Notes under the pieces: generated by a model
The model's database searches: none
What the model was told of the DNA's origin: nothing
What the model saw: only the letters and a program-made list of their open reading frames with translations
Made by a program: the position numbers and the translations under genes
Virus record (IMG/VR): IMGVR_UViG_3300022074_000002
DNA length: 64,000 nucleotides
Strand: one strand, 5' to 3'
Origin: a virus
Shown: positions 2,612 through 53,392 of the stretch, piece by piece
Numbering within the stretch: position 1 is the first letter of the stretch
How the letters are laid out: every line of letters starts with the position of its first letter

Positions 2612-2872
2612 ATGAAATACCCAATCGGCAAAAGACATGTATTTGTAGACAGTGAACCTGTTAGAATGTATTTTATTAATGATATACCCTTTGCATTTGA
2701 TGGTTTAGAAAATTATCAGAAGCAAGACAAGTGGATTCTTACAGAATGTGCTATTAATCCAGAGTATACATTAGAAGATATTTTGAGATGGGGTGACTAC
2801 CTGATGGAAGAAGAATGTCATCCAGTTTTATTTGAATTAGATCTTCTTAATCGAGAAATTTTACCCGAATGA
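2612..2872 (+). CDS. conserved cyanophage hypothetical protein
   Basis: 86 aa acidic ORF directly after the promoter; ATGA overlap with cpeT. Confidence 0.7.
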   Translation: MKYPIGKRHVFVDSEPVRMYFINDIPFAFDGLENYQKQDKWILTECAINPEYTLEDILRWGDYLMEEECHPVLFELDLLNREILPE

Positions 2873-3387
2873 ATGAATTTACTGAATTGTTAGTGGGAAC
2901 GTTTGCCAATAAAAGACAAGCACAATCCCACCCTACTCGTTATGCACATATACGTGTCTCTCATCGTTTAATTGGTGGGAATCGCATTTATGGGGAGCAA
3001 GCATACAACTATCTTTTGAACAGACCCTACAGACAGTTCGTAATTGATGTTGTACAAGAAAATGAAGAATATCGTCTGAAGAATTATGAGATTATAAATC
3101 CTCTACAATTCGCAGAGTGTAAGAATATAGATAAAATTACTGATGATATATTAAAATATCGTGAAGGGTGTGATGTCATCATGAGAAAGACAGGTAATAA
3201 AATATTTTTTGGTGGAACATCTACCTGTGAGTGTTGGGTAACATGGAATGGTATAAAAACATATGTTCAGAATGAAGTTATGTTGAGTGAGACAGAGTAT
3301 CAGGTAACAGATAAAGGATTACATGCAGAGAGTCGTACTAAGGTATGGGGTTCTGACTACGGTGCGTTTAAGTTTGTGAGACAGTAA
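2869..3387 (+). CDS. cpeT: T-type phycobiliprotein (bilin) lyase, CpcT/CpeT family
   Basis: GTFANKRQAQSHPTRYAHIRV, YGEQAYNY..NRPYRQ, GCDV, WGS..GAFKF: CpeT/CpcT signature motifs. Confidence 0.92.
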   Translation: MNEFTELLVGTFANKRQAQSHPTRYAHIRVSHRLIGGNRIYGEQAYNYLLNRPYRQFVIDVVQENEEYRLKNYEIINPLQFAECKNIDKITDDILKYREGCDVIMRKTGNKIFFGGTSTCECWVTWNGIKTYVQNEVMLSETEYQVTDKGLHAESRTKVWGSDYGAFKFVRQ

Positions 3388-18800: not shown

Positions 18801-19079
18801 CCACAAACAGGTGATGTTGTAAGAATGATTGATGTAGGTGGTAACTTGAAGTATGACACAACATTAGTTATCAGAACTCCTGAGACTAGTGGAACACCAA
18901 TACAAGGTGACTCAACAGGAACACTATTTGGAGATAGATTAACTCCATATCCATCTGGTGAACTTGTAGTTCAGACTCCTAACGCAGGATTCGCATTAGT
19001 ATATCTTGGTGCAACCGATAGTAATGATCAAATAGGCATCCCAACCAGCGTACAAGGTTGGTGGTTAATGGAGGTATAA
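3849..19079 (+). CDS. giant virion structural / tail-fibre-like protein (5076 aa) with seven phycobiliprotein-like helical domains and beta-rich modules
   Basis: N-terminus MPLSRLDN..YLYVSPDDFNATD..NRGNS...PFKSIQRA typical of cyanomyovirus giant structural proteins; C-terminal VTLPAAPQTGDVVRMID..GWWLME baseplate-attachment-like motif; late promoter. Confidence 0.85.
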   Translation: MPLSRLDNLISSKTGKYLYVSPDDFNATDALSNRGNSPVVPFKSIQRAFLEIARYSYLPGFGNDRFDQFTIMLMPGIHYIDNRPGLVDTSGVDIFGFDQANNAWTDDSILDLSNSDNVYYKFNNTEGGAIIPRGSSLVGYDLRRTVVRPLYVPDPAVTEREIPRTAMFNVTGGCYFWQFTLKDGQTTSESPLYDAAAGTGKVYYDPSDFTRLAAPNYSHHKLTVFEYADTDELNLFYRKIAKAFSAYQPTIDDPGEFDTRVQENRIVGPLSDSRIIESLTLTDATTDPSIPASTTEVTVTTKVDHGYFQGQFVAIANTEIDDVLEGIFEIKEIDQNDARKFKYLVPFVTSGIGSNIVSGQTVSVDTTPALGQNAQALAEVDSVESASPYVFNVSIRSTWGICGIWANGLKATGFKSMVIAQYTGVSLQKDDRAFIRYDEYTNTWNQASLVDAFATVPYHTKGDAYYKDEWRNFHVRASEDSFIQCVSIFAVGFADHFLMESGGDMSITNSNSNFGNTSLHAIGFKGFAFNQDKGGFITDIIPPKTVVDNTASTKKISYYTIDIQGTLSTSQNYTKLFLGNEDIVDPLVRPAATIDGYRLGAKSDDKLYVKLDPAPGTDEFFNASLEPTGFVKYIAKGSILNPSGGVVNSVYADAANLIESNRRMIQEEVFGYILEKYPRLQNIPYVNPGLDPAGNRYFDARNLIAANRQYIVDTAFDDMIRTYGSAVIQGIGDGKCKRDIGLVVDAVAEDLRDGGNANVIAATREYFDGDGNPLTNGLVGEEDYATYAFRRARDLCKLAIANLLPNKADLYDPDPNSNLAPYGINVGKTGSQAELDGDTTNGVTIDLALKADPASRYKDARNRIVANKDFILDAAVAEISVYHPDFYHPTDTQTNSQSRLADAFRLIRRNSSEIRDKALAQIAVDHPNFYIDGDNQTDEGSRYASAYRLISKNRDQIVDTALAETTVQHPDYYFVGDQATDARSRYADGYRLIVQNRVEIVNTAWNDTFAQYPNHGQYEAKCKRDLDIFIEAIGLDLFVGGNKYARKFISEYFNAAGTTWIIGGLQGEEAESVFAFNKARDYMKLAVANQLSIQDLSVTPGPAQYGGGGGDIPNNQSGACDDVQSAIVTLTDIVTAQITAGNLSGLPSETSYISGPGEEKCRRDIGIFVDSVALDLFCKGNVYSHRFAAEFFTDNTTPEFSFNSAVYNTNFNKARDMIKKAITNQLYFKDNGTQGAIDRTADNAPGSAYGQVSRDYTPHGAAYTASTGDMVLDIANHDLSTGDYIKIADNSLTFTCSMDNNATNHTYPRTTDPVSGQYIEITSSTADTITVNVGASPIVEFTPTTGTTYDPNTGLMVLEIGAHNLTAGTNVKLKEESLVFSCGFGGATGAAAEKAYPRSNGNDPFFNTSIAIQSVTATTITLQVLTTVPSTNTDPHTFVSATTGAVESGGNYAHTFVSATSNAVNFGGNTENELIDAQSALCSDVQAATDTLTGIVTTILANGNLSTMPIEVNYGTGRGPGEVKCARDLGYFIDAISVDMYHEGNKHTREYTEQYFTNASTPLPNGLQGEESESITAYNTAIGEMKKAITNQLYYKDLTVTEGGSTYAGSTTDVGTPTNVTYDATTGTLVTTITGHGLANGDKIKFLENSLTLSCTMDGNTANKTYPRPTDPTFNTWLTVANKTNDTFEVNVGTSPLVTYTPTTGTTYDPNTGLMVLEIGAHDLTAGTSIKLAPNSLTFSCGYNGATGAAAEKSYPRSNGNDPFYNTAINIESVTGTTITLQVLTTVPSTNTDPHTFVSATAGAVIAGGNYAHTFVSATANAVRKQNSAITSRTSSSACSDVQSAIDTLGTIVTDAIAAGNITGGIWNNAANPGTLIPGEAKCRRDLGIVVEAVAQDLWFGGNEFTIAATKEYFKGNQLIANGVDNEVAPSVTAFKRAEDLMQRALNNQYYDRDLNITLDTIGDPPIVGDIECDAHDMVISNQLFIAKEAYERMRAAYPSYTPSTGNTAQDCLDDIYDVLRDVMWDVKFGGNYKTYSIAKGYITNDFNGKTYPQIIQDVERDEVAKVFQEVKNVAMQVIKNETVTVSAGNDLTQIIDNTIVDDWDDEELLPKCGSAVAAVDSLMDIIIGAIGTDAGVGNLNGIQRTTADGADPGWNTALNILSATATSITINVGASPAGEQYAHTFVAAQSGAVISGGNYDHKFVSATTGAVNVVNGAQITPTNATYDATSGLLVMYFGFAHGVTTGDSLSLDDNSLTFSCGMDQYGTTKTYPRASDPVQGQNVNPTAVTTYSITINVGTSPLVEHNVSNAVYDQTSGQLALTIGNHSLASGTSIKLKEESLIFTCTKDQNKTSHAYPRSAGKYQPSTYQDGNCSDVCATVNALLDILCNSINDGNLDALPPLNNGEWDCANVRSSIEVLFDILNDAITDGTLAGLPVLNTGDFTINNEASKCFRDVTYIVDAVVNDLRLGGNLNSIQAGEAYYVGNNLEYIDGEKTETLDAWDYVGQMATAAMRNFDVLAYNCSTNSGSAIVDVNDTRGIIIGMSVVEYTAGSYRDGDNAPGLLGNSPTPVYTTIPQGTYVKRIVSNTQVELGVNGSRLTEGVTVNALQNSTTIDLYFVYENGIWADTLPTTVTVGPESEGPEVIADTTTSPSSRECAGTANAIETLVGNITTIINSGLGTVTRQEQTVNTALLSSRATLFTIDVAGTGPSNPHNFETGTPVRLVPRPRFDQVTGKYVDVDKRLVRLPNGFETNRTYYVIAPGRVTQPENYGATTLFNGSDQTRLMLATSKENAAAGIYIYASETDSIDKDVEIDLYQFVLDDKYDLHNYSAELTNTVNAGIMTNVSHIFDVPNAGTTPQKAFIRAVEGGVLPLVSTTYANDSSVAVTDPQNSAIGRINPNVEFFTRYQNSKVITLHKSHADAINNVNPITFASGQSGTKFDVFANKRRSPMKFDPGFTDATATSGKWYIQCRDEVTGQPDNVKKNNIFWRIKESDYADRQRSTDMWYQRLEDNRIADERTYKLRMVIPSYLQNARDPINGFVIKTRTDDTRKLVPQKILLKPVVGSVYGARFQNPVDAGEFIGDTSGSYDPYRRDTTGAGIEYRAFAKFTSGIQATIESGRKVKDILDDSIEYLELTLFDHGVDTKNFPGLRNETFTTVKITSPQGGNFVTSKVNNLASSTNAVSFAGNSSGLANIHAYYTINGEHYIIIKNIRGGDLVYSEYANTRFTQGTVFADMLEDQDMGKSLPLKTQIAKNNPQFFYKQNGANVYTITPGDRIQDDAGVEYYVDSVDDVGVIEDTFYIFGYETLQQRISGQQDGIYYLTALRGNISPFPTGAGVTNNFKKFKFSQPVGKLYPLNYRNDPLWFNNSGTTQKEKDYYAGLIDPPQAYSAADNYVHGAVTVNDFKGSTTREMVADLTEQPAFIERSYTIEAQSGNAASGSEQRKIPIGGNGAVSITDTKYYVELRRPSIARAGNHTFEYLGFGPGNYSTGLPARQEVVLTPDEDFYAQSKKQDGGIVFYTGINSQGDLYIGNRRINAITGEETFIDRATLVDDGDEDDTLGGLVTTFDTPVTFNQNITVVGGDGELVNTFESPITIAVQDSDLTQARDALIIRSNVTSVDPVTQLEQDEGLDRTSFSPPTEGDIRISKNTIKSAVFQFNARGNGQGYLFQTHTVAGVASNITPNQSPLIANGGSRINAGQFVNYGGVLAKTGDVLLKGSEIGKSGSLGWILANYFAQIANNSIDNIVFDGSNVVKLEFRDFNSGVALTNQEIGITSSSQIRIKNFYYDPRLNLTWQIYAAKPGDPFSPTNNYCHFQVIDQIPQATQPWETIIAGTAVGATAPTIEFSNSNFKEVGVLGGEALRTETETIGDYKLGINTVARAPHSAYENAFVDNLTTDPRANLDVVGTAFISGRTTADFLQHTQFADRDKTAVDNALLVGGDSSAPNDISVFRIATTNSGRVGINVSNANLDRALVVAGTSRFTADARFEHDIEVNGDGVIAEIRTSQTTGTFNLVDDTTFVGTLNIGSQVTTANLFNDSTADQFIYVGGSSAHSNLWLGATPDSAGTSISKVEIGGAYANTNEDLSYTKIKTRNLRVDGDMWLGFRRASGDTVELKSQASQVDFFSNSGGPSIINFATNASEINVAGQGGKTTINNQLEVIASAKFNGDVHLCGGVASFAFTGGRAQLGTDIVSHEDGIISQALFNKNVDILNVLVKQTNEEGYNQVDTAGAGQWGGASYQNSINTGGAVEPIILSGLSGDEYYLPLKFAPVKANGDPYFGTNDYIIVDSATVGAGSSATSHPEILQVVELTRISEAPYYIKVKRQPFGAFGGVLSNHVDTTPIYKVNVQFDATWTEQALDNDTSATDSVYLSEFGGNLTSNDYIIVDRDDSPKVPEYIKVITSLDQQVQKFRVSNCADPDLDVFEVNSVTGEVQIGNPAVPGSIVTINSSLNMSGGCGTLSDISFLGDAAAGSNVITNVSITTSGKTINDIKKGDVLSVVTDSSPLFLLQDTAVDFVFGGAIYLTSNIIGAQSVTGTTFRASRNERLTTTDGGLNTTFDVDTCSGTTTIGTHAGRFDVNLAWSSSGSILTNADLPTALNASEIITYGYYADPQSIQGNGPNTTIISTAAGNSASVLQIAVQSLGEGTGKFAIGDLIAVGPLASFTGVTGQIEFMTITDVVDGTNTIVATRAQEGTVNMSHSAADVVRRVIKHETQSLVTDAQIRQRLVAGVSNDYLSVILERGYISQSKLDYKQWLRFRNTTTGVEILGIVTGRLYGKTHTSVMNEQVGDGAKSYREGSLNVTDNLTLAGGNFVIYDSVKQTKLFHFVNDDGHADHQGLLYWDAGVLARGDFFLYPSSCPENVLLTLNCTPSFSVDNLGNVTAKTTLTVTGVSSASPTESDVFSVQNLGINGGSEYTIKQDRSIDAFGLTNFTTSSGARHTRYLSAASPEADLSLIANIIYMVNVQNTQTLIVTLPAAPQTGDVVRMIDVGGNLKYDTTLVIRTPETSGTPIQGDSTGTLFGDRLTPYPSGELVVQTPNAGFALVYLGATDSNDQIGIPTSVQGWWLMEV
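6414..6929 (+). repeat. four tandem 129-nt (43-aa) repeats
   Basis: Arg codons of RYKDA, RLADA, RYASA, RYADG at 6414, 6543, 6672, 6801. Confidence 0.85.
7329..9494 (+). repeat. ~1.08-kb intragenic tandem duplication
   Basis: 7871-8240 and 8948-9317 are near-identical at DNA level (offset 1077); KCxRD Cys codons at 7329, 8421, 9495. Confidence 0.85.
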
Positions 19080-40168: not shown

Positions 40169-40561
40169 ATGCCAGAAGTCTCAACCTTCAAAGATTTGAG
40201 TATTACATTCAAAAAACATCCTGTTACTAACGATTTGGTAACAGTGAAGGATAAGGCTGCTGTTGCACAATCAATAAAAGGATTATTACTTACTAGAAGA
40301 GGTGAAAGACCATTCCAACCAGAAATAGGAAGTGGTCTACAGGATCTATTGTTTGAACCATTAGATTATGGTACTGCTGGATTAATTAAAAAAGAAATTA
40401 AAGAAACTCTCAATAGGTACGAACCTAGAATATCAATTCAAGGACTTAACTGCTATCCACGAACTGACGAGAATGGATATGAAGTGCAATTAGAGTATAT
40501 GATCTTAGGTAGAGAAGACAGAGCAGTTGGGATAGATATATTTCTAGAGCGTACACGATAA
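40169..40561 (+). CDS. gp25: baseplate wedge subunit gp25
   Basis: FKDLS..F..HPVTND..AV.QSIK.LLLT..GERPFQP.IGS..L..LLFEP..YEPRI. Confidence 0.93.
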   Translation: MPEVSTFKDLSITFKKHPVTNDLVTVKDKAAVAQSIKGLLLTRRGERPFQPEIGSGLQDLLFEPLDYGTAGLIKKEIKETLNRYEPRISIQGLNCYPRTDENGYEVQLEYMILGREDRAVGIDIFLERTR

Positions 40562-42361: not shown

Positions 42362-45300
42362 ATGGTTGCTGTAAAAACAAAGAGAATATCTACTCTGATA
42401 GAGACACAGCTTCCTGAGTTCATTAGTACAGAATACGAACTTTTTAGTAAGTTTGTAACGAAGTATTATGAAGCACAGGAGGTACAGGGTGGTACTCTAG
42501 ACATTATTAATAATATTCAAAAATATGCAGACATTGATTACTATGAAAAGAACTTACTTAGACAACACGATACTTTGGATGTTAGTATCACTAATAGTAG
42601 CGACACAATTGTACTACAAGATGCAAGGAGTTTTCCAGAAAAAGACGGATATATTAGAATAGATGATGAGATAATATTTTACGCAACTAGAACTGATACA
42701 ACCTTAAGTGGATGTTCTAGAGGTGTTAGTGGTAATACAAAAATTGGTGATCTATACAGTAAAAGTAATTTTGTAAGTACAACTGCTACAGCACATGCTG
42801 CTGGTCAAACAGTTTACAATATTAGTAATCTTTTTCTTTATGCATTAGTAAAGAATTTTGAGAAACAATATCTAGGTTCATTCCCTGAGAAATATCTTAG
42901 AGGTAGTGTTGATAAAAGAACCTTAATAAAGAACATACAGAATTTCTATAAAGCGAAAGGAACTGATAGTTCTATTAAGTTTGTTTTCAATAGTATTATT
43001 GATAAGGACTTTGATCCTCTTGATCGTACTAACTTAGCACAGTTTGAGTGGTTTATAAAATCTGAGTTTGATAATATTGCCATAGATGTTACAAGTCCAA
43101 ATGGTCAATTTTTAGTTGGTGATAGAATCAAAACCACTACTGCTAGTGGAGAGATTGCTAAGATTGTTAGAAATGATCAGAACGTAATTACAAGAGTATA
43201 TTTAAGACAAGTATCCAGCACCTTCTCTCTTGGAGATAGTGTTACTGGCACTACAGGATCAACATTTACTGCTAGTACAGTATATACATTCCCTAATGGT
43301 ATTTTCTACATCAACTTTGGTAAATTGCCACAGTTATTTGGAGATTTTGAATATGGCAAATATTATTTTGCACCAGAAGGAATAAGGATCTTCCAAAACT
43401 GGCAAATTATATGGAATCAATCTGACCCTTCTAACTTACCGATGCCTATCCATCCAGATGGTCATCCTATGAAGTTTAGTACCACTAGAGAAGGTACATT
43501 ACTTGGTGGTCAACAATATTACAACAGCAAACCTGTTCTTGGTGTCAAGACAAACTACGATAATGAATTCCAACCAGAATTCATGATGAATGTTGATGAG
43601 TCTAATAAGATTTACTATTATTGTGCTTATCATCGTTACATGTCAGGTCTTGATGGTGATGAAGGTTACATGGAGTTGGTTGCTAATACAAGACCAAGAA
43701 AAATTGTAAAACCTGAGGTATACAAACCAAGAGATTTTACATATAAAGCATCTAATGCAGATTGGATAAACGTATATGCACTTAAGTGTAAAGTTATATC
43801 TGGTGATGTAAAAAGTTTAGTAGGAAAGAAAATAGTTCAATCTGATACAGAAGAGTATGACTATGCAGATGCTGTTGTAGACAATGTATATGCAGATGGA
43901 ACTAGAGATGATGAGGTAATCTATAATATAGTTTTAGCACCAGAGACAGTTAATGGTACATTTGGTGTCTCAACTAAGACTCAACTTGAGAAAGTGCTAA
44001 TAGGCACTAAGTCTAAAGGAGATAGGATTGATGTATTCTCTACTACTGGTTGGGATAATACAGGATCAGTATTGATTGGTGATGAGACAATTACATTTAG
44101 TGAAAAGACTGTAGGTCAATTTATTATTGACAATAGATTAGCACAGACTGCTGTGCAGCACGATGTTGGTACACCAGTATACAAACCTGTTACAATAGCA
44201 GGATCTGGTGTCACGTTGTTGACGATGGGTATTGTTTATAATTTACAACCATCAGATCCACAACCATACTCTTTTGTAGGAGATAAGATACAAGTATCTA
44301 ATCCTGGTTTTGAGACTTCTGATTCTAAGATTGTAAACGTAGGAACAAATCAGACTAGATGGATATTAGGAACTGGTGCAGCAGTTAATGTTCCTACATT
44401 ATCTGCAGTTGCTACATCATTAGATCAAGTACCAACAAATGTATCTGCTATACTTGCAGATGATCAGTATTATTATATTGCTAGTTCTAGTTTCCCATCA
44501 CATAAAATTTTAGATGGTTCTACTGTGACACAAACAGTATTGGATCAGAAACTTCTTCGTATTATTAGAAAACAAGCAACTAGAACTACAGAAACATATC
44601 CTACACCTAAGAGAGATATTGGTATTGGATTAAATGGTGTTCCTTTTTATGGTTATAAAGATGCAGAAAGTATTAGATATGGTAAGTTAGAACAAATCAA
44701 GGTTGATCTTCGTGGAACTGGATATGTAAGACCACCATTTGTATTGATTGATCAAGTACCTAATAAAGCAAGAGCAATATTAGCAGGACAAGTTGTAGAA
44801 AGCATAAGTGTGGATACTACTGATGTATTTCCTAGAACTCCAGACGTATTAATTACATCTGGTAGAAATGCTGCTGTTCGTGCTGTAGTAACTGGTGGTA
44901 AGGTCACAAGTCTTATACTTGATAATGCTGGTGAGTTCTATTCTTCACCTCCACAAGTTGTAATTAGAGATAATGCTGGTAGAGGTAGGTTTGCTGAGTT
45001 TGAAGCAGTTGTTAATACTGATGGACAGATTACTGGATTTAATAAGATTGCAGAGGGTAACTTCTATAATCAAAATACTGTAATAGTTGAAATAGTTCCA
45101 GTGGGCAGTGGTGCAACTGGTATACCTCTTCTTAAAGAATGGAATTTTAATAGATATAAAAAATTAGAAACTAAATTAGACACAGAGAATGGTTATGTAT
45201 TTGGAAACAGCAATAACGTATTGGAGTATGGTTATGGTTATGCTGCAAACCCGAAAGCACTTCGTGTTTCTCTTAGTGATAACCTAAACAGTGCTGGAAC

Positions 45301-48300
45301 AGAACCAGCATCTAAATCACACTCACCTATTATTGGTTTTGCTTATGATGGTAATCCAATCTATGGTGCGTTTGGTTATCAAGATCCTTTAGATTCTACG
45401 TCATCTATTACTAGAATGACATCTAGTTATTCTATTAATGGAAATCGTTCTGAAGGACCTGACTTGACAACCTATCCTATCGGAACTTTTGTCAATGACT
45501 ATACCTATACCCACAAAAGTGGCACACTAGATGAAAACAATGGAAGATTTTGCACCACCCCAGAATTTCCGCAAGGAACTTATGCTTATTTCATTACTAT
45601 TGATAGCAATCAAGTACCGCAGTATCCATACATTATAGGAGAGAATTTTTATTCTCTTCCTGTAGATAGTAATTACAATTCTGATATTAACCAGAACGAC
45701 ATTCCTAAAAAAGCAAGACGTTTTTACCAAGCAGGAATGCCACGTAATGGTGATGGTTTTATTGCACAAATAGAAGAAGTAAAACAAGGTAATGTTGAGA
45801 GTGTTAGTGTATTAGATACATCTGCTAACTTCTCTATCAACTCGCAGTTATATTTTGACAATACAGGAACACAAGGTTCAGAAGCAGAAGCAATCGTTAG
45901 TTCTGTAAAAGGTAAAGATGTATCTTACTTACAATCAAAAGAAAACAAGGTTGTTAAACTAACAATCATTCAAAGTGCATACTTATTTGCAGATGATACG
46001 TTATCACAACCGACGTCTGGTGCATCTGGAACTATTGTTGGAACAGTTAAGAATGATAGTACAATTGTATTGAAAAATGTAACTGGTACATTCAATAATA
46101 CTGGTACATTCTCTGCTGCTATTAAGACATTTGATATTTTATTAGATCAAAGAAGTTCTTACACTAAAGGTGCAATATTAAGTTTGACTGATGGTGTAAA
46201 TGCTCCTATTGCTACTGCCGAAGTATTAGAAGGAACGTCTGCCCAAAACGTAGTCCAGATCAAGGTTTTGACAGGTACATGGACTACTGATAACACATAT
46301 TTCATACAGTCTAATGATTTGTTCAATACATCTGGAACTAGAATAGTAACACTCACATCATTGAGTGATGGATTAGAACCATTTGAAGTAAATCAAAGTG
46401 TAGCACTAATAGAAACCACATCCAATCATGGATTGGGAATTGGAGACAATGTAACTATTGACATCAACCCTGATGATGCAACTAAAACAAAAACATACTA
46501 CATTAGAAAGAGATTATATCAAGAGGCAGTTCTAATACCTCCTAATGCAAAGACCAATATTAATTTTACAGGAATAGGAAGATATGAAATCCTTAATGGT
46601 GGTGCTGATTACACAGCTGGCACTTACACTAGCATTGCTCTTACTGGTGGATCGGGATCTGGAGCAACTGCTACCTTTACTGTATCTTCTGCAGGGGTAG
46701 TTTCTGGTATACAGATACAAGATGCTGGTGTAGGATATGCAAGAGGAGATTATCTTGGAGTTGCAGATGAGGATCTAGTAAGATCTGGTGCATCACAATC
46801 AACATCAAGGTTTACAATCTATGTTGGTCATGTAGGTGTTGCTGTTGGTGCAACAAAAGTTACTGTAGATAACGCACAAGGATTTGCAACAGATGACTTT
46901 ATACAAATAGGTCAAGAAGTTTTAAAGATTGCTGGTATTAATGGAAACGATCTTTCTGTAACTAGAGGACAAGAGGGAACTACAGATGTAGATCATTTTG
47001 ATGGACAGGAAGTATCTCTTTACAATGCTCAATATAACTTTACAAATAATTACCAGATCTTTAGTGGTTCACTATCAGGTTACATACAATCCTATGATCC
47101 TATAACACATAAGATAGTTGTTGTATATGATTATGCAACATTAAACACTAATGCAAATAAAGTTGTATTGAGTTCTAGTTTCTTTGATACTAGCACACCA
47201 CAAAGATTGGTTGCTGTTAGATCTGCTGAAGATGTAGTATACAAATTTGAATTCTCAGAAGATAATAGTACATTTGTACCTAACCCTAACATAGATCTAC
47301 AAGAATTTTACAAGTATAAGTTTGATACGTCTCATTCTAGTCTCACTGGGACTTACTTTGATATTAGTCCAAGTAGTAATTACAATTTAATTACAGTAGA
47401 GAAAATTGAATCAACTATATTACCTGGTAATGCTGGTGCATTTACAGATGTTAAGTTTGGATTTGGTTCTAGACTTACTACTAATACATATCAAACAAAA
47501 ACTGGAACAGATTTTACAAACTTCTATTACTTTGATAATAAGAATGTAGTAAACTCTGGAGGATCATACTTTAAACTTGTAACTGATCCTCTACAAGGAA
47601 CTAAGACTATCAATTATGTTACACCAAATCGTTTTGTTTATGATGTTACCAGTACTCCTCTTTGGGATGGTTCTGGATCCATTTCTTATACTACTAATGG
47701 TCAGTTCGCTATCGGTAAGATTAATACAGTCGGAATTATAAATTTAGGATTAAACTATAAGAAAGTTCCAGTTATCACTGGTGTTGATCCTGCAGAGTCT
47801 TACAGAGCAGCAGCAACTGTAACATTTGATGCAGCATCACAAACTATTACAGGAGTTGACATTACAAATGAAGGATCTAACTATGTAAATCCTAAAATTG
47901 TAATAACTAAGTCTGATGGATCAGATGTAAAATTCAATGTTCTTGTAAGAGAAGGTAAAGTCACATCTATTACTGTAGAAAAACCAGGCAGAGGTTATAC
48001 ATATGCACCTGAGATTCTTATTGTAGAAGGTGAGGTAGAAGCATTTGTTGAGAGTACATCTATAGGTGTACCACAGAGTGTAAGAATAACATCTAACGGT
48101 GGAGCATTCCATTTAGATGAAACTGTGTCATCTACATTCCGATCTAACTATGTTCTTGCATTGAAAAATTATAATGGCAACTTTAGAATTGGTGAACAAG
48201 TAGTTCAAAAAATTAATGGTGTAGAAGTATTCAGAGCAACAGTTGTAGATTGGAGATTTGGATCTAATTTACTTAAGGTAGAAAATTCTACTGGTATAGT

Positions 48301-51300
48301 TCGTGAAGATGTTTCTATAGAATCTACAATTATGCCAGTATCTGGTATAGTACAATCTATATTTGTAACTACATTTAGTGAAGAGATTTCTAGTTTTTAT
48401 GATAACTTAGGTTTCTATCAATCAGACAAAGGAAAACTAGGTGTACAAAATCAAAAGATAATAGACAGTTTATTCTATCAAGATTATTCTTATGTTATTA
48501 AGTCAGGAACATCTATTGAGCAATGGCGTGATCTTATCAAAGCAACTACACACCCTGCTGGTTTCAAATTATTTGGTCAAGTTGATATTGAAGCAACTGC
48601 TAATTTTGCAACAAGAGATCAAGGTTCATTAGTTGAGTTGCCTAAAGATCGTACACCTGATGCAACACACTTCACCGTTGTACAACTTTGGGATCCTGAG
48701 AAGAATAAGATTACAGTTGAGAACTCAAGTAGAATTGTTACACAGACTGTACAGAAAGTTGAGAACCAAAGAATACGTAAAGGATTTGGTACTGCTGCAA
48801 CAAGTGAGTTTAATTTTAACGAAGCAGAGGCATTTGAGTTTACATTAGGTGCAGTATTTGATGGAGCATTTGATAATGATGGTAGATTACAAGGAACTAC
48901 TGCATTTACAACTAAGAAAGATGGTGTGGCATTTAACTTAGCAGATAATAAGTTAAAAAATATGATTGTGACTCTTGATGGAGTTATACAAGAACCTGGC
49001 ATTGCATATACTATAAATTCTGGAAATATTACATTCTCACAACCACCTCTTGTTGGCGTTACATTCTATGGTAAGGTCTTTAAATTTAAAGATGAACAAT
49101 ACAATACAAAATACTTTAAAAAATTAAGAAATATATTCCAACGTGGTGGTACATGGATAGATTCTGCAAATCAAATTGAAAGAAATGTACAGTTTATTAT
49201 TGATGAGACTATTGGATATGGTAAAGCAACTCACCCATCATTAGACTGGAGTACCAAACAAGATGATTATGAGGCAAACATCAGAGCAATCTTAGATGCT
49301 TATCAACATGATATTAGATTTGGTGGAAATATCAAGACAATTGATTATGCATCAATCTTTAGTTCGGGTAGTGCTTATCTTTACATTAGGAATTATAAGA
49401 CACAATCTAATGATATATTTGAGTATGCAACTAGATTAGCAAAACTTGCAATTAGGAACTGGGACTTTGTTGATGTAAACATTGCATATGTTCAAGGTCA
49501 GAAAACAATGACTGTCAGCAGCACTAAGAATCTTGCTGTTGGTTTGTTTGTAAGTTCTGGTAAATCATATCCAACAGGAACTAAGATTGTATCTATTGAT
49601 AGTGATACACAGGTCACATTAAACAATGCTGCACTTGCAAACTCTGGTGGTGGCGGTGGTGCTCCATCTGGTACCACTCCTGTATCTGGCACAGGTAGTA
49701 CAACTACTATTGGCACTAGCACTGCACAAGTTCCATTAGGAAGCACATTCACTGTGCCACCTGGTGCAACTGTCACAGTACCTCTTTCTTTCTCAGGTAC
49801 AACACAAGCTAAGTTTGGTTGGAGTGCATTGAACAATGGTATGTTCTATAAAGCAGGAGAGTTGATAGAGAAGAATGAAACAGAAATTATTCAATTAGCA
49901 TTGAATGCAACTCAAACACAGTATCCAAACTTAGGTTGGGGTGGAGGTCCTGGTGTAGCACCATATTATCCTCTTCAAATGAGACCATTGATACAGGCGT
50001 ATGTTTATCATCTTAAGATGGGTGGTAATTTTAAAATTGTAGAGAATGCACAAGCATACTATAAACAAAATGATTATCCTTATGGTGAAGAGTTGTATTA
50101 CGATGCATCATCTTTAGGTGAAGTCCAGAAGGGAATTACTGGAACTGTGGAGTCAACAATTTTCATAATGAATGAAGTTAAAAATAATTGTATACAGGCA
50201 ATGAGAAATCAGTTGTCAATCACAGATCCTAATGTTCTTGTAGATTCTCTAAGTCCTGTATGTGCAGAAGTAGAGAGTACACTTAACACATACCATGATA
50301 TTACTGAGACTATTATTACAGAAGGGCGTGGACTTGTAGAGAAGACACCAGTTAATCAAAATAAGTCTGGTTATTGGACTGGTACAGTAACATATTCTAA
50401 TTACAATATACTTGGTGATCCTTTACTTCCTGTAGAGGAATGCACTACTGTCATCTCTGCAATGGATTCACTGTATGAAAATTTAAGTGATGTTGTAAAA
50501 GAAGAGTCTGTAACAAGAAGTCTACCTGATTATATTGATGGTGAGACCACAGACTTTGAATTATATTGGGATGATAATACTGAAGTAAACACAGAAGAAG
50601 ATGAAGATTTATTCCTTACAATCAATTCAGTATTACAAAGACCTAAGTTTACAGAAAACTATCCATTAAAAGATGCTTACTGGATTGATAGAACTGTTAT
50701 TCCTAACGTAATTAAATTTGATACTGCTCCTATATGGGATCAAGACTTAGGTGCTAAGAGTATTGGTGAACCAACTGCTGTAGAAAAAGTTGTAGGTATT
50801 GGTGTTTCTAATTACAAGAGATTGACAATTGATTTTGAATTGGTAGATGGTGTTAGAAACGGACCTTTCTTAATTCTTGATGTATTAGATGGAACTGTTC
50901 AAAGCATTGAATCCGAAGATAGTTTGTATGTATTCTTAGATGGTGTACTACAAGTAAATGGAAAGGCGTATACTGTTTCAGGTCCTAATATCACATTCCA
51001 TGATTCTATCAAGAAAGATATGCAGATTGACATGCGTTACATCTATGGTAGAGACGTAGGTCAAATATTAAACATATATGACTTTGCACCTGACACTTAT
51101 TTCAGTCAAGGAACTTTCTCATTTGTTGCTTCCCAACAAAACATGGATACTTTGTTAAGTTATACATGGATGGGTGAAAAGATAGGTAATCCTATACATG
51201 TGTGGCAAACAAGAGCAAATGGTACTAAGAATGTAATAGGTGAACTTTCAAACCCAATTAGAACTGGAAACACTGTAGTATTTGAATTAAAATCTCAAAA

Positions 51301-53392
51301 CTCAAATATCGAGTCGGGACTAGATTATACATTTGCATCAAAAGGAAATTACAATAATAGTTTTGTACTAACAGATGCAGATATAACAAATGAGATTTTA
51401 AATCTCAAGAAAGATAGTGATGGTAGAAATATATTAAAAGATCCTAACTCTGATTGGTTTGGAACAGTAGTTGGTAAAACATATGTTGCACCATTTGTAT
51501 ATTTGTCTAATGGAGACAATATTAAAGTAGAAGGTGAGACAGGTTTTAGAAAAATTAAAACTCTCCCTACTGAAACTACAAGTAAAGATGGAAGACCTAA
51601 CGAACAGACATCTGATGATATCTTTGGTTCAGTCTCAGTTGAGACTTATACTGGAATCACGAGAGGAGAAGGTCTTTCTGTCGTTGCAGAAATTCAGAAT
51701 GGATCTGTAATATCTCTTACATGGAACCAGCGTAGTTATGATCCAATTACACAACCAACTGCATATCAGTATTATACACCTCCTGTACTTAAGTTTGAGA
51801 CATTAGATGGTAATGGTGGTGGTGCTAAAGCAAATGTATTAGTAAGTAAGGGTCAGGTAATTAGTGTTGATCTACTTGATGGTGGTTCTGGATATACCAA
51901 AGCACCTAAGGTTATCACAACTAGAAGATTTGATATCTTAAGTGAAAGAGACGTTGGTGTTTCTCTAATCAATGTTGCTATCAATCCATTTGTGGAAACT
52001 GGTGGAATGACTGCTTTATCAGTTGTTACTGAGATTGATGAGTCTGGTCTTACAGGTATTACAGGTGTTAGTTCTCTATCAGTACAGGTAGCGGGTGATG
52101 CTGAGATTGTTCTCGAAAGAGAATTTACTCCTGACGAGATAGAGGTATTCTCTATTGGTGGAGCATTAGATCCACAAAGAGATTATCTAGAACTTAATAC
52201 TAACAGACCTACTCCTGCTAGTGAAGTTCAAGTATTTGAAGGTCCTACTTATGAAGCAACTGTTGTTTCTGCAGAGGTTCAAGATATTGTATCTCTCAAT
52301 TCTATATCTACTGTTTCTAAAGTAATCACACAGACTCAGCAGATTGAGATTCCTAATAATGCAATCAGCAATGTCAACTACTTTGAGAATGCTGCACTAT
52401 TGGATCTTGACTTCCTCATCGGTGATGTTATTGCTTACATTGCTGATACATCTAAGTTTGCTCCTAGTGGTAGATTGATGATTGGTGATGAGGTTATATA
52501 CTATGAGAAGAAGATTAATGATAGATTCTATCAAATCATTAGAGGATATCAAGGAACAACTGAACAAGATTGGGTTGCTGGAACTTACCTCAGACAGATT
52601 GAAGATGTAACAGTTATATCTGCTGGTCTTGTTGAAGTTGAGTCTGAAAGCGATGTTAGAATGGTTAACATTGGACTCGTCGGTTCTGGATTTGAAAGAC
52701 AAGTATTCAGACAAGTAACATCTCCTGATGACTTAGACATTACTAAGGAATCAACTGAAGTTCTTATTGTACCTCCACCTGGCGGTGCAGTTGATGGATA
52801 TGAAGAGACAGCGTTCATTAATGATCCTATACAACAGAGAAATCAGAACCAAGTTGATTTGATTGAAAATGCTCTTGGTAACTATACTGTTACTCAACGT
52901 GATGGAACAATCATTGAAGTAAGAAACGAACTATTTGGAACTAACGAATATATCGGTTCATATATAAAGACTACTGTAGGTTCTAATATAGGAAACTGGC
53001 AGTACATAGCATTTGATGATGGAACTGCTGACGTATCTAACCTAACAATCGCTGATATATCAACATACTATCCATCATTGACTCTTGGTGATTTTGTAGA
53101 TAGAGCAAACTCCTCCTTCACAAAGGCAGGAGATAAGTTCAATCTTGCATTACCATCAATACAAAATCCTGTCGCTATTAGTTCTACAGTAGGAACTATT
53201 GGTGGAAATATTGTTGTACAAGATACAACTTACTTCCCAACAACAGGGTATATTTTACATAACAATGGTACATATACAGGTATAATTAAGTATACTGGTA
53301 AGACTGCTAATACCTTCACTGGTTGTACTAGACATAATGGTGATAATCAGATTGCGTCTGGATCTGAGATAGTACCTATATCAATCGTATAA
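42362..53392 (+). CDS. gp7: baseplate wedge initiator gp7-like giant protein (3676 aa) with inserted domains
   Basis: Between gp6 and gp8; QLPEFI..EY..F..F...YY, IKNI..FYKAKGT..S.KF, HPAGFKLFG gp7 motifs. Confidence 0.8.
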   Translation: MVAVKTKRISTLIETQLPEFISTEYELFSKFVTKYYEAQEVQGGTLDIINNIQKYADIDYYEKNLLRQHDTLDVSITNSSDTIVLQDARSFPEKDGYIRIDDEIIFYATRTDTTLSGCSRGVSGNTKIGDLYSKSNFVSTTATAHAAGQTVYNISNLFLYALVKNFEKQYLGSFPEKYLRGSVDKRTLIKNIQNFYKAKGTDSSIKFVFNSIIDKDFDPLDRTNLAQFEWFIKSEFDNIAIDVTSPNGQFLVGDRIKTTTASGEIAKIVRNDQNVITRVYLRQVSSTFSLGDSVTGTTGSTFTASTVYTFPNGIFYINFGKLPQLFGDFEYGKYYFAPEGIRIFQNWQIIWNQSDPSNLPMPIHPDGHPMKFSTTREGTLLGGQQYYNSKPVLGVKTNYDNEFQPEFMMNVDESNKIYYYCAYHRYMSGLDGDEGYMELVANTRPRKIVKPEVYKPRDFTYKASNADWINVYALKCKVISGDVKSLVGKKIVQSDTEEYDYADAVVDNVYADGTRDDEVIYNIVLAPETVNGTFGVSTKTQLEKVLIGTKSKGDRIDVFSTTGWDNTGSVLIGDETITFSEKTVGQFIIDNRLAQTAVQHDVGTPVYKPVTIAGSGVTLLTMGIVYNLQPSDPQPYSFVGDKIQVSNPGFETSDSKIVNVGTNQTRWILGTGAAVNVPTLSAVATSLDQVPTNVSAILADDQYYYIASSSFPSHKILDGSTVTQTVLDQKLLRIIRKQATRTTETYPTPKRDIGIGLNGVPFYGYKDAESIRYGKLEQIKVDLRGTGYVRPPFVLIDQVPNKARAILAGQVVESISVDTTDVFPRTPDVLITSGRNAAVRAVVTGGKVTSLILDNAGEFYSSPPQVVIRDNAGRGRFAEFEAVVNTDGQITGFNKIAEGNFYNQNTVIVEIVPVGSGATGIPLLKEWNFNRYKKLETKLDTENGYVFGNSNNVLEYGYGYAANPKALRVSLSDNLNSAGTEPASKSHSPIIGFAYDGNPIYGAFGYQDPLDSTSSITRMTSSYSINGNRSEGPDLTTYPIGTFVNDYTYTHKSGTLDENNGRFCTTPEFPQGTYAYFITIDSNQVPQYPYIIGENFYSLPVDSNYNSDINQNDIPKKARRFYQAGMPRNGDGFIAQIEEVKQGNVESVSVLDTSANFSINSQLYFDNTGTQGSEAEAIVSSVKGKDVSYLQSKENKVVKLTIIQSAYLFADDTLSQPTSGASGTIVGTVKNDSTIVLKNVTGTFNNTGTFSAAIKTFDILLDQRSSYTKGAILSLTDGVNAPIATAEVLEGTSAQNVVQIKVLTGTWTTDNTYFIQSNDLFNTSGTRIVTLTSLSDGLEPFEVNQSVALIETTSNHGLGIGDNVTIDINPDDATKTKTYYIRKRLYQEAVLIPPNAKTNINFTGIGRYEILNGGADYTAGTYTSIALTGGSGSGATATFTVSSAGVVSGIQIQDAGVGYARGDYLGVADEDLVRSGASQSTSRFTIYVGHVGVAVGATKVTVDNAQGFATDDFIQIGQEVLKIAGINGNDLSVTRGQEGTTDVDHFDGQEVSLYNAQYNFTNNYQIFSGSLSGYIQSYDPITHKIVVVYDYATLNTNANKVVLSSSFFDTSTPQRLVAVRSAEDVVYKFEFSEDNSTFVPNPNIDLQEFYKYKFDTSHSSLTGTYFDISPSSNYNLITVEKIESTILPGNAGAFTDVKFGFGSRLTTNTYQTKTGTDFTNFYYFDNKNVVNSGGSYFKLVTDPLQGTKTINYVTPNRFVYDVTSTPLWDGSGSISYTTNGQFAIGKINTVGIINLGLNYKKVPVITGVDPAESYRAAATVTFDAASQTITGVDITNEGSNYVNPKIVITKSDGSDVKFNVLVREGKVTSITVEKPGRGYTYAPEILIVEGEVEAFVESTSIGVPQSVRITSNGGAFHLDETVSSTFRSNYVLALKNYNGNFRIGEQVVQKINGVEVFRATVVDWRFGSNLLKVENSTGIVREDVSIESTIMPVSGIVQSIFVTTFSEEISSFYDNLGFYQSDKGKLGVQNQKIIDSLFYQDYSYVIKSGTSIEQWRDLIKATTHPAGFKLFGQVDIEATANFATRDQGSLVELPKDRTPDATHFTVVQLWDPEKNKITVENSSRIVTQTVQKVENQRIRKGFGTAATSEFNFNEAEAFEFTLGAVFDGAFDNDGRLQGTTAFTTKKDGVAFNLADNKLKNMIVTLDGVIQEPGIAYTINSGNITFSQPPLVGVTFYGKVFKFKDEQYNTKYFKKLRNIFQRGGTWIDSANQIERNVQFIIDETIGYGKATHPSLDWSTKQDDYEANIRAILDAYQHDIRFGGNIKTIDYASIFSSGSAYLYIRNYKTQSNDIFEYATRLAKLAIRNWDFVDVNIAYVQGQKTMTVSSTKNLAVGLFVSSGKSYPTGTKIVSIDSDTQVTLNNAALANSGGGGGAPSGTTPVSGTGSTTTIGTSTAQVPLGSTFTVPPGATVTVPLSFSGTTQAKFGWSALNNGMFYKAGELIEKNETEIIQLALNATQTQYPNLGWGGGPGVAPYYPLQMRPLIQAYVYHLKMGGNFKIVENAQAYYKQNDYPYGEELYYDASSLGEVQKGITGTVESTIFIMNEVKNNCIQAMRNQLSITDPNVLVDSLSPVCAEVESTLNTYHDITETIITEGRGLVEKTPVNQNKSGYWTGTVTYSNYNILGDPLLPVEECTTVISAMDSLYENLSDVVKEESVTRSLPDYIDGETTDFELYWDDNTEVNTEEDEDLFLTINSVLQRPKFTENYPLKDAYWIDRTVIPNVIKFDTAPIWDQDLGAKSIGEPTAVEKVVGIGVSNYKRLTIDFELVDGVRNGPFLILDVLDGTVQSIESEDSLYVFLDGVLQVNGKAYTVSGPNITFHDSIKKDMQIDMRYIYGRDVGQILNIYDFAPDTYFSQGTFSFVASQQNMDTLLSYTWMGEKIGNPIHVWQTRANGTKNVIGELSNPIRTGNTVVFELKSQNSNIESGLDYTFASKGNYNNSFVLTDADITNEILNLKKDSDGRNILKDPNSDWFGTVVGKTYVAPFVYLSNGDNIKVEGETGFRKIKTLPTETTSKDGRPNEQTSDDIFGSVSVETYTGITRGEGLSVVAEIQNGSVISLTWNQRSYDPITQPTAYQYYTPPVLKFETLDGNGGGAKANVLVSKGQVISVDLLDGGSGYTKAPKVITTRRFDILSERDVGVSLINVAINPFVETGGMTALSVVTEIDESGLTGITGVSSLSVQVAGDAEIVLEREFTPDEIEVFSIGGALDPQRDYLELNTNRPTPASEVQVFEGPTYEATVVSAEVQDIVSLNSISTVSKVITQTQQIEIPNNAISNVNYFENAALLDLDFLIGDVIAYIADTSKFAPSGRLMIGDEVIYYEKKINDRFYQIIRGYQGTTEQDWVAGTYLRQIEDVTVISAGLVEVESESDVRMVNIGLVGSGFERQVFRQVTSPDDLDITKESTEVLIVPPPGGAVDGYEETAFINDPIQQRNQNQVDLIENALGNYTVTQRDGTIIEVRNELFGTNEYIGSYIKTTVGSNIGNWQYIAFDDGTADVSNLTIADISTYYPSLTLGDFVDRANSSFTKAGDKFNLALPSIQNPVAISSTVGTIGGNIVVQDTTYFPTTGYILHNNGTYTGIIKYTGKTANTFTGCTRHNGDNQIASGSEIVPISIV

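What the first reader, a model, noticed from the sequence alone, without database searches (positions are those of the whole stretch)
49154..50480. Two more nested phycobiliprotein-like domains in gp7 that keep only the beta155-type cysteine
SEEN: WIDSANQIERNVQFIIDETIGYGKATHP..AILDAYQHDIRFGGN (49154-49330) and MFYKAGELIEKNETEIIQLALNATQTQYP..LIQAYVYHLKMGGN (49841-50030) are followed by two H-type helices, CAEVESTL (Cys 50261) and CTTVISAM (Cys 50441). The KCxRD cysteine is absent in both. A beta insert (VSSTKNLAVG..PTGTKIVSIDSDTQVTL) resembles the insert in D1 of the giant protein. INFERENCE: the module has moved between virion proteins. The Cys retained in all nine domains is the one matching the T-lyase target, which argues against a simple E-H disulfide.
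Basis: partly seen in the sequence, partly recalled or inferred. Interest (0 to 1): 0.72.

Follow-up and report, generated by a model that had tools for sequence, protein, structure and literature searches.

The report
Nested phycobiliprotein-fold domains in cyanophage gp7
The giant baseplate protein (gp7) of this T4-like cyanophage contains two domains, one nested inside the other, that are distant relatives of the host's light-harvesting pigment proteins; they keep one of the two pigment-attachment sites, so it can now be tested whether the virus particle carries pigment.

Summary
The 3676-aa gp7-like ORF (42362-53392) lies between gp6 and gp8. It holds two copies of a helical module.
- D2 (residues 2490-2656) and a beta-rich insert sit inside the G-H loop of D1 (2260-2368 plus 2686-2715).
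- D1 spliced versus D2: HHalign 99.8%, E 1e-27.
- Both copies model as the phycobiliprotein fold (D2 Z about 15, rmsd 2.4 A over 139 residues; D1 Z 12.1). Profile searches of PDB sequences listed only phycobiliproteins among the rows shown (best E 0.002).
- Cys2634 and Cys2694 are invariant in 101 orthologs and map to beta-Cys153/155.

- D2 keeps KCxRD in 89 of 101 orthologs. Its loss is local to this phage's lineage.
- Across 150 representative proteins of the family, the KCxRD Cys is 96% conserved and the H-helix Cys only 40%.
- The H-Cys covaries almost perfectly with an Asp at the beta-Asp39 position, the residue that holds the beta153 bilin.

In 20 phage genomes, the module and CpeT occurred together in 12 and were both absent in 6. 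Two genomes had the module only and none had CpeT only. All CpeT-less cyanomyoviruses form a single clade, so this is about one independent event.

Bilin attachment is inferred, not shown. The scan had already noted the same thing in this genome's fibre proteins and in gp7 of another genome.

The parts
42362..53392 (+). gp7-like giant baseplate wedge protein, 3676 aa (P0001)
   Evidence: It is a single ORF. It lies between a gp6-like ORF (40561-42357; PF21379, PF21871, PF21387) and a gp8-like ORF (53449-55263; PF09215). It matches PHROG baseplate wedge and virion structural families. It has a YHYH domain at residues 927-1086.
49139..49465 (+). D1 N-part, residues 2260-2368: helices A to G of a phycobiliprotein-type globin fold
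   Evidence: Folded alone it gives pLDDT 81. The top 9 of 48,161 PDB representatives are phycobiliprotein-family chains; the best is 8imk_G with Z 12.1, rmsd 2.7 A, 106 residues aligned, model 1-108 to chain 32-145. HHalign to D2 is 99.8%.
49160..49162 (+). Asp2267 codon, equivalent of beta-Asp39
   Evidence: It is invariant in 101 orthologs. Profile position 8 aligns to CpcB Asp39. Family-wide this Asp covaries with the H-helix Cys.
49268..49270 (+). Tyr2303 codon, at the position of the KCxRD (Cys84-type) cysteine in D1
   Evidence: It lies 18 residues before the first G of GGN, the same spacing as in the giant protein's KCxRD units. It is Tyr in 101 of 101 orthologs.
49466..49828 (+). Beta-rich insert plus Gly/Ser/Thr-rich linker, residues 2369-2489, inserted in the G-H loop of D1
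   Evidence: The AF2 model shows short strands here. The first 30 or so residues align with the insert after giant-protein module 2445-2518. No other relative was found in the window.
49829..50329 (+). D2, residues 2490-2656: a complete contiguous phycobiliprotein-fold module nested inside D1
   Evidence: Model residues 240-403 match phycobiliprotein beta chains 31-177 with Z 14-15, rmsd 2.4 A over 139 residues. All listed Foldseek hits are phycobiliproteins. HHalign to CpcA is 90.5%, E 1.3e-6. The A2 profile against PDB gives best E 0.0023, and all 60 rows shown are phycobiliproteins.
49967..49969 (+). Tyr2536 codon, at the position of the KCxRD cysteine in D2 (lost in this lineage)
   Evidence: This position is Cys in 89 of 101 orthologs, within the motif KC(G)RDIG. 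Here and in a few close relatives the stretch is replaced. The replacement is not a frameshift pair.
50261..50263 (+). Cys2634 codon, start of helix H of D2 (beta153/155-type)
   Evidence: It is invariant in 101 orthologs. Model residue 384 lies 19 residues before residue 403, which aligns to chain residue 172 (PC beta) or 177 (PE beta), so it maps to Cys153 or Cys158.
50417..50506 (+). Helix H of D1, residues 2686-2715, with Cys2694 (codon 50441-50443)
   Evidence: It aligns to helix H of D2 when spliced to the D1 N-part. Cys2694 is invariant in 101 orthologs. A weak local HHalign match puts it on CpcB Cys153 (P 0.059).
2869..3387 (+). Phage CpeT (T-type bilin lyase family), candidate partner
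   Evidence: PF06206 matches with E 1e-36. The gene lies 460 bp upstream of the 5076-aa module-bearing protein. In 46 of 54 related IMG/VR loci a module is encoded downstream on the same strand.
3849..19079 (+). 5076-aa virion protein with seven modules of the same family
   Evidence: The D2 and A2 profiles match many pieces of it. It has seven E sites (six KCxRD, one DCLDD) and seven H-type Cys.

Best explanation
SHOWN: residues 2260-2715 of the gp7-like baseplate protein are two phycobiliprotein-fold (globin-like) domains derived from the light-harvesting protein family. D2 and a beta-rich insert are inserted into the G-H loop of D1, just upstream of D1's helix-H cysteine. The two domains belong to a large module family that my searches found only in cyanophages. 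It occurs in baseplate and fibre proteins.

INFERRED, as the most likely mechanism: the modules are still bilin-binding units. In gp7 the Cys84-type site (C-x-R-D) has been given up, always in D1 and in this lineage also in D2. The beta155-type site is kept: an Asp at the beta39 position plus the Cys at the start of helix H. That site is complete in D1 (Asp2267 and Cys2694). In D2 it is Cys-only (Lys2497 and Cys2634).

A T-type lyase would attach a host-made bilin to these cysteines during virion assembly. The lyase could be the phage's own CpeT (2869-3387) or the host's. The baseplate would then carry pigment. A plausible use is light-gated adsorption.
For: Homology and fold:
- every PDB sequence hit shown is a phycobiliprotein, best E 0.0023.
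- HHalign of D2 to CpcA gives 90.5%.
- D2 scores Z about 15, rmsd 2.4 A over 139 residues.
- D1 scores Z 12.1 in a search that does not depend on Foldseek.

Nesting.

Site conservation:
- Cys2634, Cys2694 and Asp2267 are invariant in 101 orthologs.
- Over 1511 module pieces family-wide, the three residues that contact the 84-bilin in phycobiliproteins are 96% (C), 93% (R) and 99% (D) conserved. Overall identity to phycobiliproteins is only 12-16%.
- The H-Cys is accompanied by Asp at the beta39 position in 94 of 96 modules. Only 17 of 187 modules without the H-Cys have that Asp. This is the strongest covariation of any position.
- Beta-Asp39 hydrogen-bonds the pyrrole nitrogens of the Cys153-bound bilin (PMC6614406).

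Partner:
- CpeT is encoded in the window and is syntenic with module genes.
- In 20 genomes both are present in 12, neither in 6, the module alone in 2 and CpeT alone in 0 (naive Fisher p 7e-4).

Phenotype hint:
- P-HM1 and P-HM2 (both features present) do not adsorb in the dark.
- P-SSM2 and P-SSP7 (neither feature) do adsorb in the dark (preprint 10.1101/167650).
Against: - No chromophore, attachment or lyase activity was tested.
- Both gp7 domains here lack the family's best-conserved site, so the fold does not need a bilin at that site.
- 59% of family modules have no H-helix Cys.
- D2 here has Lys, not Asp, at the beta39 position.
- All six CpeT-less myoviruses form one clade on a gp6 tree (100/99 support). 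The co-occurrence therefore amounts to about one evolutionary event plus the outgroups.
- S-SKS1 has a module with Asp and Cys but no CpeT.
- The covariation of Asp and Cys is confounded by subfamily structure, because many other positions also covary.
- Pfam PF00502 scores stay below the gathering threshold.
- The residue mapping of the Cys rests on alignment ranges, not on a residue-by-residue superposition.
- As far as I know, pigmented cyanophage particles have never been reported.
Confidence: 0.42

Rival explanations
1. The domains are a pigment-free structural hub. They descend from phycobiliproteins but now serve only as rigid helical scaffolds that tolerate insertions, spacing and displaying beta-rich domains in the baseplate. 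The conserved Cys and Asp stabilise the local fold, for example by capping helix H.
For: The module accepts large inserts in at least three loops: the G-H loop (here), the B-E loop (P0054 and relatives) and the F-G region (P0041). Both gp7 domains here have lost C-x-R-D. 59% of modules lack the H Cys. Modules occur up to 33 times in a single fibre protein, which fits a building-block role. S-SKS1 has a module without CpeT.
Against: A pure scaffold does not explain 93-99% conservation of exactly the three bilin-contacting residues C, R and D at 12-16% overall identity. It does not explain the invariant Cys in 101 orthologs. It does not explain the tight Asp39-type and Cys155-type pairing or the association with CpeT.
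Confidence: 0.36
2. The helix-H cysteines are reactive for another purpose. Possibilities are an intermolecular disulfide or other cross-link that locks baseplate subunits together outside the cell, or a Cys/Asp metal site.
For: The Cys are invariant in an extracellular, oxidising setting. The Cys-Asp pairing could equally well be a metal or catalytic dyad. The site is solvent-exposed in phycobiliproteins (PMC6614406).
Against: An E-H intradomain disulfide is excluded as a general rule, since 307 of 516 modules have the E Cys without the H Cys. No second conserved Cys is available within gp7 residues 2250-2720 in this phage apart from Cys2610, which is Met in most orthologs. This reading does not explain the link with CpeT.
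Confidence: 0.15
3. The resemblance to phycobiliproteins is convergent or an artefact of helical-bundle matching, and the domains are unrelated helical repeats.
For: Single-sequence and Pfam scores are sub-threshold (13-16 bits against a 22.2 cut-off). HHalign of D2 to CpcB is only 8%, and the D1 N-part to CpcA or CpcB about 1%. Helical models can reach Z 13-14 by chance, according to the tool's own note.
Against: All 12 PDB sequence hits and all 60 shown are phycobiliproteins out of 177,635 sequences. The KCxRDIG...GG motif aligns in register with Cys84, Arg86 and Asp87. Two separately predicted models both rank phycobiliproteins first, one of them in a search of 48,161 chains that does not use Foldseek. 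Ordinary globins score clearly lower, at Z 8.7 or less.
Confidence: 0.04

Closest known systems
Phycobiliprotein beta subunits (CpcB, CpeB, cryptophyte PE/PC beta; Pfam PF00502)
   Same: The fold is the same globin-like helices A to H (D2: Z about 15, rmsd 2.4 A, chain residues 31-177). A Cys at the start of helix H sits at the beta153/158 position. An Asp sits at the beta39 position (D1, and most family modules that have the H Cys). In most D2 orthologs the C-x-R-D motif is in register with Cys82/84, Arg86 and Asp87.
   Different: The domains are embedded in a 3676-aa virion protein. The N-terminal X-Y helices that build the alpha-beta dimer have no match. One domain is split by another. Both domains here lack the Cys84-type site, which as far as I know every light-harvesting phycobiliprotein keeps. 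Scores are below the Pfam threshold. No chromophore has been shown.
ApcE (core-membrane linker) phycobiliprotein-like domain
   Same: It is a phycobiliprotein-fold domain built into a large multidomain protein and interrupted by a loop insertion. It ranks third to eighth among structural matches of D1 (4xxi_A: Z 11.1, rmsd 2.5 A over 99 residues). From my own knowledge, ApcE binds its bilin without a separate lyase and at a non-canonical Cys. That shows both features are possible in this fold.
   Different: ApcE is a host phycobilisome protein. Its insertion is a loop rather than whole domains, and it lies in another position. It is not nested within a second phycobiliprotein domain.
T-type bilin lyases and their target (CpcT/CpeT acting on beta-Cys153/155)
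   Same: The phage encodes a CpeT family member (PF06206, E 1e-36). The Cys kept in gp7 is at the position this lyase type serves (review PMC10452541).
   Different: The known substrates are host phycocyanin and phycoerythrin beta subunits. A virion protein as substrate is a hypothesis only.
T4 gp7 baseplate wedge protein
   Same: The gene lies between gp6 and gp8 homologs and matches PHROG baseplate wedge families.
   Different: It is about 3.5 times longer than T4 gp7 and has added YHYH, Ig-like and phycobiliprotein-fold domains. The Pfam Baseplate_wedge hit is below threshold (15 bits against 27).

Membership tests
Phycobiliprotein superfamily (PF00502, globin-like fold) | Globin-like core of helices A, B, E, F', F, G, H | tested here: met
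   D2: Z 14-15, rmsd 2.4 A, 139 residues aligned, chain 31-177. D1 N-part (helices A to G): Z 12.1, rmsd 2.7 A, 106 residues aligned, chain 32-145, first of 48,161 chains. Helix H of D1 is assigned by HHalign to D2.
Phycobiliprotein superfamily (PF00502, globin-like fold) | Score above Pfam's gathering threshold (22.2 bits) | tested here: not met
   Scores are 13.0 bits for the gp7 stretch and 15.9 bits for a giant-protein unit. Three of the 19 A2 members hit with best E 0.014. Profile-level evidence is stronger.
Phycobiliprotein superfamily (PF00502, globin-like fold) | Cys84-type attachment site with Arg86 and Asp87 (C-x-R-D) | tested here: not met
   D1 has Y-E-A-N and D2 has Y-P-L-Q in this phage. 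The site is present in D2 of 89 of 101 orthologs and in 96% of family modules.
Phycobiliprotein superfamily (PF00502, globin-like fold) | Beta-type second site: Cys153/155 before helix H, with Asp39 | tested here: met
   D1 has Asp2267 and Cys2694, both invariant. D2 has Cys2634 invariant but Lys2497 (Asp in 57 of 101 orthologs). The mapping rests.
Phycobiliprotein superfamily (PF00502, globin-like fold) | N-terminal X-Y helices and alpha-beta monomer or trimer assembly | tested here: inconclusive
   The best alignments start at chain residue 30-34, after the X-Y helices. Oligomer assembly was not tested.
Phycobiliprotein superfamily (PF00502, globin-like fold) | Covalently bound bilin | not testable with these tools
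   This needs spectroscopy or mass spectrometry of virions or of recombinant protein.
Substrate of a T-type bilin lyase (CpcT/CpeT) | Target Cys at the beta153/155 position and a T-type lyase available | tested here: met
   For the Cys position. CpeT is encoded at 2869-3387. The two co-occur in 12 of 14 module-bearing genomes tested.
Substrate of a T-type bilin lyase (CpcT/CpeT) | Lyase-dependent bilin transfer to that Cys | not testable with these tools
A biochemical assay is needed.
T4-type gp7 baseplate wedge subunit | Position between gp6 and gp8, and similarity to gp7 families | tested here: met
   gp6 and gp8 Pfam domains are in the flanking ORFs. phrog_708 and phrog_2885 (baseplate wedge subunit) match with E 8e-120 and 2e-206.

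The most novel reading that the evidence does not exclude
Cyanomyovirus particles carry covalently bound bilins on phycobiliprotein-derived modules of the baseplate (gp7) and fibres. The beta155-type sites are loaded by the phage's own CpeT, whose physiological substrate has never been settled. These pigments act as the light sensor behind the long-known light-dependent adsorption of phages such as S-PM2 and P-HM1/P-HM2.
Probability: 0.22. Interest if true: 0.95.

Novelty: new variant of a known kind. Interest (0 to 1): 0.78.

Why it matters
Phycobiliproteins are known as antenna proteins of cyanobacteria and algae. I found no paper in the searchable library that describes them as parts of a virus particle.

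Two open questions become testable:
- What is cyanophage CpeT for? It is currently read as an auxiliary metabolic gene that helps the host antenna.
- Why do some cyanomyoviruses adsorb only in the light?

gp7 is a useful test case because D1 is a natural single-site variant. It has the beta155-type Asp and Cys without the Cys84-type site, which separates the two candidate attachment chemistries.

The nesting, together with inserts at three different loops in orthologs, shows that the fold is used as an insertion-tolerant hub. That is of interest for protein architecture.

Tried and rejected
- Direct Pfam scans give only sub-threshold PF00502 hits.
- HHalign of the D1 N-part against CpcA or CpcB is not significant (about 1%), and D2 against CpcB reaches only 8%. 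Forced global HHalign of D2 to CpcB failed.
- The loss of KCxRD in D2 is not a compensated frameshift. The other two frames hold stops and no KCxRD.
- Beyond the first 30 or so residues, the beta insert has no detectable relative in the giant protein or any other window ORF.
- No whole genome is held for this window.
- The paper on phage CpeT (Gasper et al. 2017) is not held. What I recall of it is not used as evidence.
- tblastn with this phage's CpeT underestimates the distribution of CpeT: 78 records, against HMM hits in four phages it had not listed. The BLAST-based counts were therefore dropped as a co-occurrence test.
- The co-occurrence statistic (Fisher p 7e-4) is not taken as strong support, because the gp6 tree shows one CpeT-less clade.
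Full report
WHAT IS THERE. The finding lies in a single 3676-aa ORF (42362-53392, + strand). The ORF before it carries gp6 domains and the one after it a gp8 domain. The ORF itself matches PHROG baseplate-wedge and virion-structural families. It is therefore the cyanomyovirus gp7 homolog. The window is a T4-like cyanophage with no close isolate: the best megablast hit covers only 9% of the query.

TWO COPIES, ONE INSIDE THE OTHER. The two N-terminal stretches are paralogs (BLASTP E 1e-4). I built alignments from 101 orthologs. I joined the D1 N-part (2260-2368) to the last helix (2686-2715) and compared the result with D2 (2490-2656). HHalign gave 99.8% probability, E 1e-27, over 137 columns. 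The alignment runs straight across the splice and matches the two helix-H motifs, each C-x-x-V-x-S. D1 is therefore a split copy. A beta-rich insert (2369-2489) and the whole of D2 sit in its G-H loop. The AF2 model of 2251-2720 (pLDDT 70) has the matching order of helices. I could not read inter-residue contacts from the model, so the nesting rests on sequence logic.

RELATION TO PHYCOBILIPROTEINS. There are three lines of evidence that do not depend on one another.
- Sequence profiles. A profile of the gp7 stretch hit 12 PDB sequences, all phycobiliproteins. A module profile (A2: D2 orthologs plus two units of the giant protein) hit 84, and the 60 shown are all phycobiliproteins (best E 0.0023). 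KCxRDIG...GG(N) aligns in register with Cys84, Arg86, Asp87 and GG(T).
- Profile against profile. I fetched cpcBA operons from cyanobacterial genomes. HHalign of D2 against CpcA gave 90.5%, E 1.3e-6.
- Predicted fold. D2 matches beta subunits at Z 14-15, rmsd 2.4 A over 139 residues (chain 31-177). The D1 N-part folded alone (pLDDT 81) ranks allophycocyanin, ApcE and phycoerythrin chains first among 48,161 representatives (Z 12.1 down to 9.4). Ordinary globin sensors follow at Z 8.7 or less.

Pfam itself stays below its threshold. I therefore call these domains distant relatives, not members of PF00502 by its own cut-off.

THE CYSTEINES. Cys2634 and Cys2694 are invariant in 101 orthologs that go down to about 48% identity. 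In the structural alignments the model's residue 403 pairs with the last residue of phycocyanin beta (172) or phycoerythrin beta (177). Cys2634 lies 19 residues earlier in the same helix. It therefore maps to Cys153 or Cys158, which is the beta155-type site. A weak local HHalign match puts Cys2694 on CpcB Cys153.

- D2's lack of KCxRD is a local event. 89 of 101 orthologs have KC(G)RDIG at that place. This phage and a few close relatives have a replaced stretch with Tyr2536, and the replacement is not a frameshift. D1 always has Tyr2303 there.
- The family is much larger than this window. The A2 profile found 1211 cluster representatives at E up to 1e-3, with up to 33 pieces per protein.
- In the 150 best proteins (1511 pieces), the E-helix Cys, Arg and Asp are 96%, 93% and 99% conserved. 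The H-helix Cys is present in only 212 of 531 pieces, and 300 of 511 have no Cys anywhere near the start of helix H. The H Cys is universal in this window (nine of nine) and in gp7, but not in the family.
- An obligate E-H disulfide is excluded, because 307 of 516 complete modules have the E Cys alone.

A NEW OBSERVATION. Among complete modules, the H-helix Cys goes with an Asp at profile position 8. That Asp is present in 94 of 96 modules with the Cys and in 17 of 187 without it (p 2.5e-54), the strongest association of any position. Position 8 aligns with CpcB Asp39 and fits the structural register (model 242 to chain 34). In phycocyanin, beta-Asp39 hydrogen-bonds the pyrrole nitrogens of the bilin bound to Cys153 (PMC6614406). 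Modules therefore come in an alpha-like form (84-type site only) and a beta-like form (84-type site plus an Asp39/Cys155-type site). gp7 D1 is a third form with the beta155-type site only: Asp2267 and Cys2694 are both invariant. D2 here has the Cys but Lys2497, where 57 of 101 orthologs have Asp. One caveat applies. Many positions covary with the H Cys, so subfamily history contributes to the signal.

DISTRIBUTION AND CpeT.
- tblastn with the gp7 stretch hit 75 phage records, all cyanophages.
- A 22-piece family protein hit 415 records. By the first word of the organism name these were 328 Synechococcus, 60 Cyanophage, 14 Prochlorococcus, 11 Marine, 1 uncultured and 1 Pelagibacter.
- The profile finds no module in pelagiphage HTVC008M.
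- In BFVD, all named proteins with a good structural match are from Synechococcus phages. The rest are unnamed or from uncultured phages.
- ORF 2869-3387 is a CpeT. In 46 of 54 related IMG/VR loci a module gene follows it on the same strand.

I then ran HMM searches of 20 phage genomes.
- Both module and CpeT: S-RIM2, Syn19, ACG-2014d, S-RIM8, P-SSM4, Syn9, P-SSM7, P-RSM4, P-HM1, P-HM2, S-PM2 and S-SM1.
- Neither: HTVC008M, P-SSM2, S-SSM7, S-CAM9, S-SM2 and P-SSP7.
- Module only: S-SKS1 and ACG-2014f (its CpeT hit is sub-threshold, E 0.039).
- CpeT only: none.

The naive Fisher p is 7e-4. However, on a gp6 tree all six CpeT-less myoviruses form one well-supported clade. The association may therefore reflect a single loss, and I picked some of the genomes knowing their BLAST patterns. 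The criterion 'the H Cys is conserved' fails for the family at large.

MECHANISM. The homology, the nesting and the residue conservation are shown. Bilin attachment is inferred. I think it the most likely reading (about 0.4) because a mere scaffold does not explain the near-absolute conservation of exactly the bilin-contacting residues, the Asp-Cys pairing, or the link with a T-type lyase. The main rival (about 0.36) is a pigment-free, insertion-tolerant hub. In its favour, orthologs carry 300-440-aa inserts in the B-E loop or the F-G region of D2, and gp7 here has shed the family's best-conserved site. A cross-link or metal role for the Cys remains possible.

One published phenotype fits a light-sensing role. 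P-HM1 and P-HM2 do not adsorb in the dark, whereas P-SSM2 and P-SSP7 do (preprint 10.1101/167650). The first two have the module and CpeT, and the last two have neither. From my own knowledge, S-PM2 also shows light-dependent adsorption, and it has 12 module matches and a CpeT. This is a handful of phages, so it is a lead and not a test.

NOVELTY. Searches of the paper library found no description of phycobiliprotein-like domains in phage structural proteins. Earlier notes of this scan reached the same reading for this genome's fibre proteins and for gp7 of another genome. I treated them as leads and re-derived the evidence here. New in this report:
- the ortholog-level correction for D2;
- the family-wide reversal of which Cys is conserved;
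- the Asp39-type and Cys155-type covariation;
- the HMM-based CpeT table with its phylogenetic caveat;
- the match to published dark-adsorption data.

Noticed in passing
P0041, P0043, P0046 (insert at D2 profile positions 88-92); P0054, P0055, P0057 and others (insert at positions 39-44): Some gp7 orthologs split D2 itself with inserts of 300-440 aa that the module profile does not match. One type looks like beta-propeller repeats: P0046 carries PF06739 in the precomputed Pfam list. The other type sits just before KCxRD. The module therefore tolerates inserts in at least three loops.
   Followed up: partly
window 49940-49990 (residues 2527-2542): In this phage and a few close relatives (P0002, P0004, P0006, P0017) the D2 stretch that holds KCGRDIG in other orthologs is replaced by a Gly/Pro-rich stretch with Tyr at the Cys position. 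The other reading frames do not encode the lost motif.
   Followed up: yes
Syn19 54654-74105, S-RIM2 55238-74374, ACG-2014d 45306-65759, S-RIM8 48430-67617 (loci L162-L165): In a large clade of cyanomyoviruses the modules lie in one annotated CDS of about 6400-6800 aa just after gp6. Six-frame search shows similar open frames of 6076-7312 aa in Syn9, P-RSM4, P-SSM7 and P-SSM4. Each is far longer than the 3676-aa gp7 here, as if gp7 were fused with further structural proteins.
   Followed up: no
gp6 tree of 20 phages: S-SSM7, S-CAM9, S-SM2, S-SKS1, P-SSM2 and ACG-2014f form one clade (100/99 support) that lacks CpeT. Four of the six also lack the module. S-SKS1 and ACG-2014f keep it in other proteins (open frames of 928 aa and 3973 aa).
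   Followed up: partly
L186 (P-RSM4 75798-76271), L187 (P-SSM4 74694-75167): These two modules have no H-helix Cys, and the P-SSM4 one also lacks the E-helix Cys (K-K-T-D). Both phages nevertheless encode CpeT.
   Followed up: no
window 45140-45619 (gp7 residues 927-1086): A YHYH domain (PF14240, E 9e-32) lies in the N-terminal third of gp7. Its role in a baseplate protein is unexplained.
   Followed up: no
window 21795-25817: A 1340-aa ORF with long Gly-rich runs follows two ORFs with tail-collar domains. I did not examine it.
   Followed up: no
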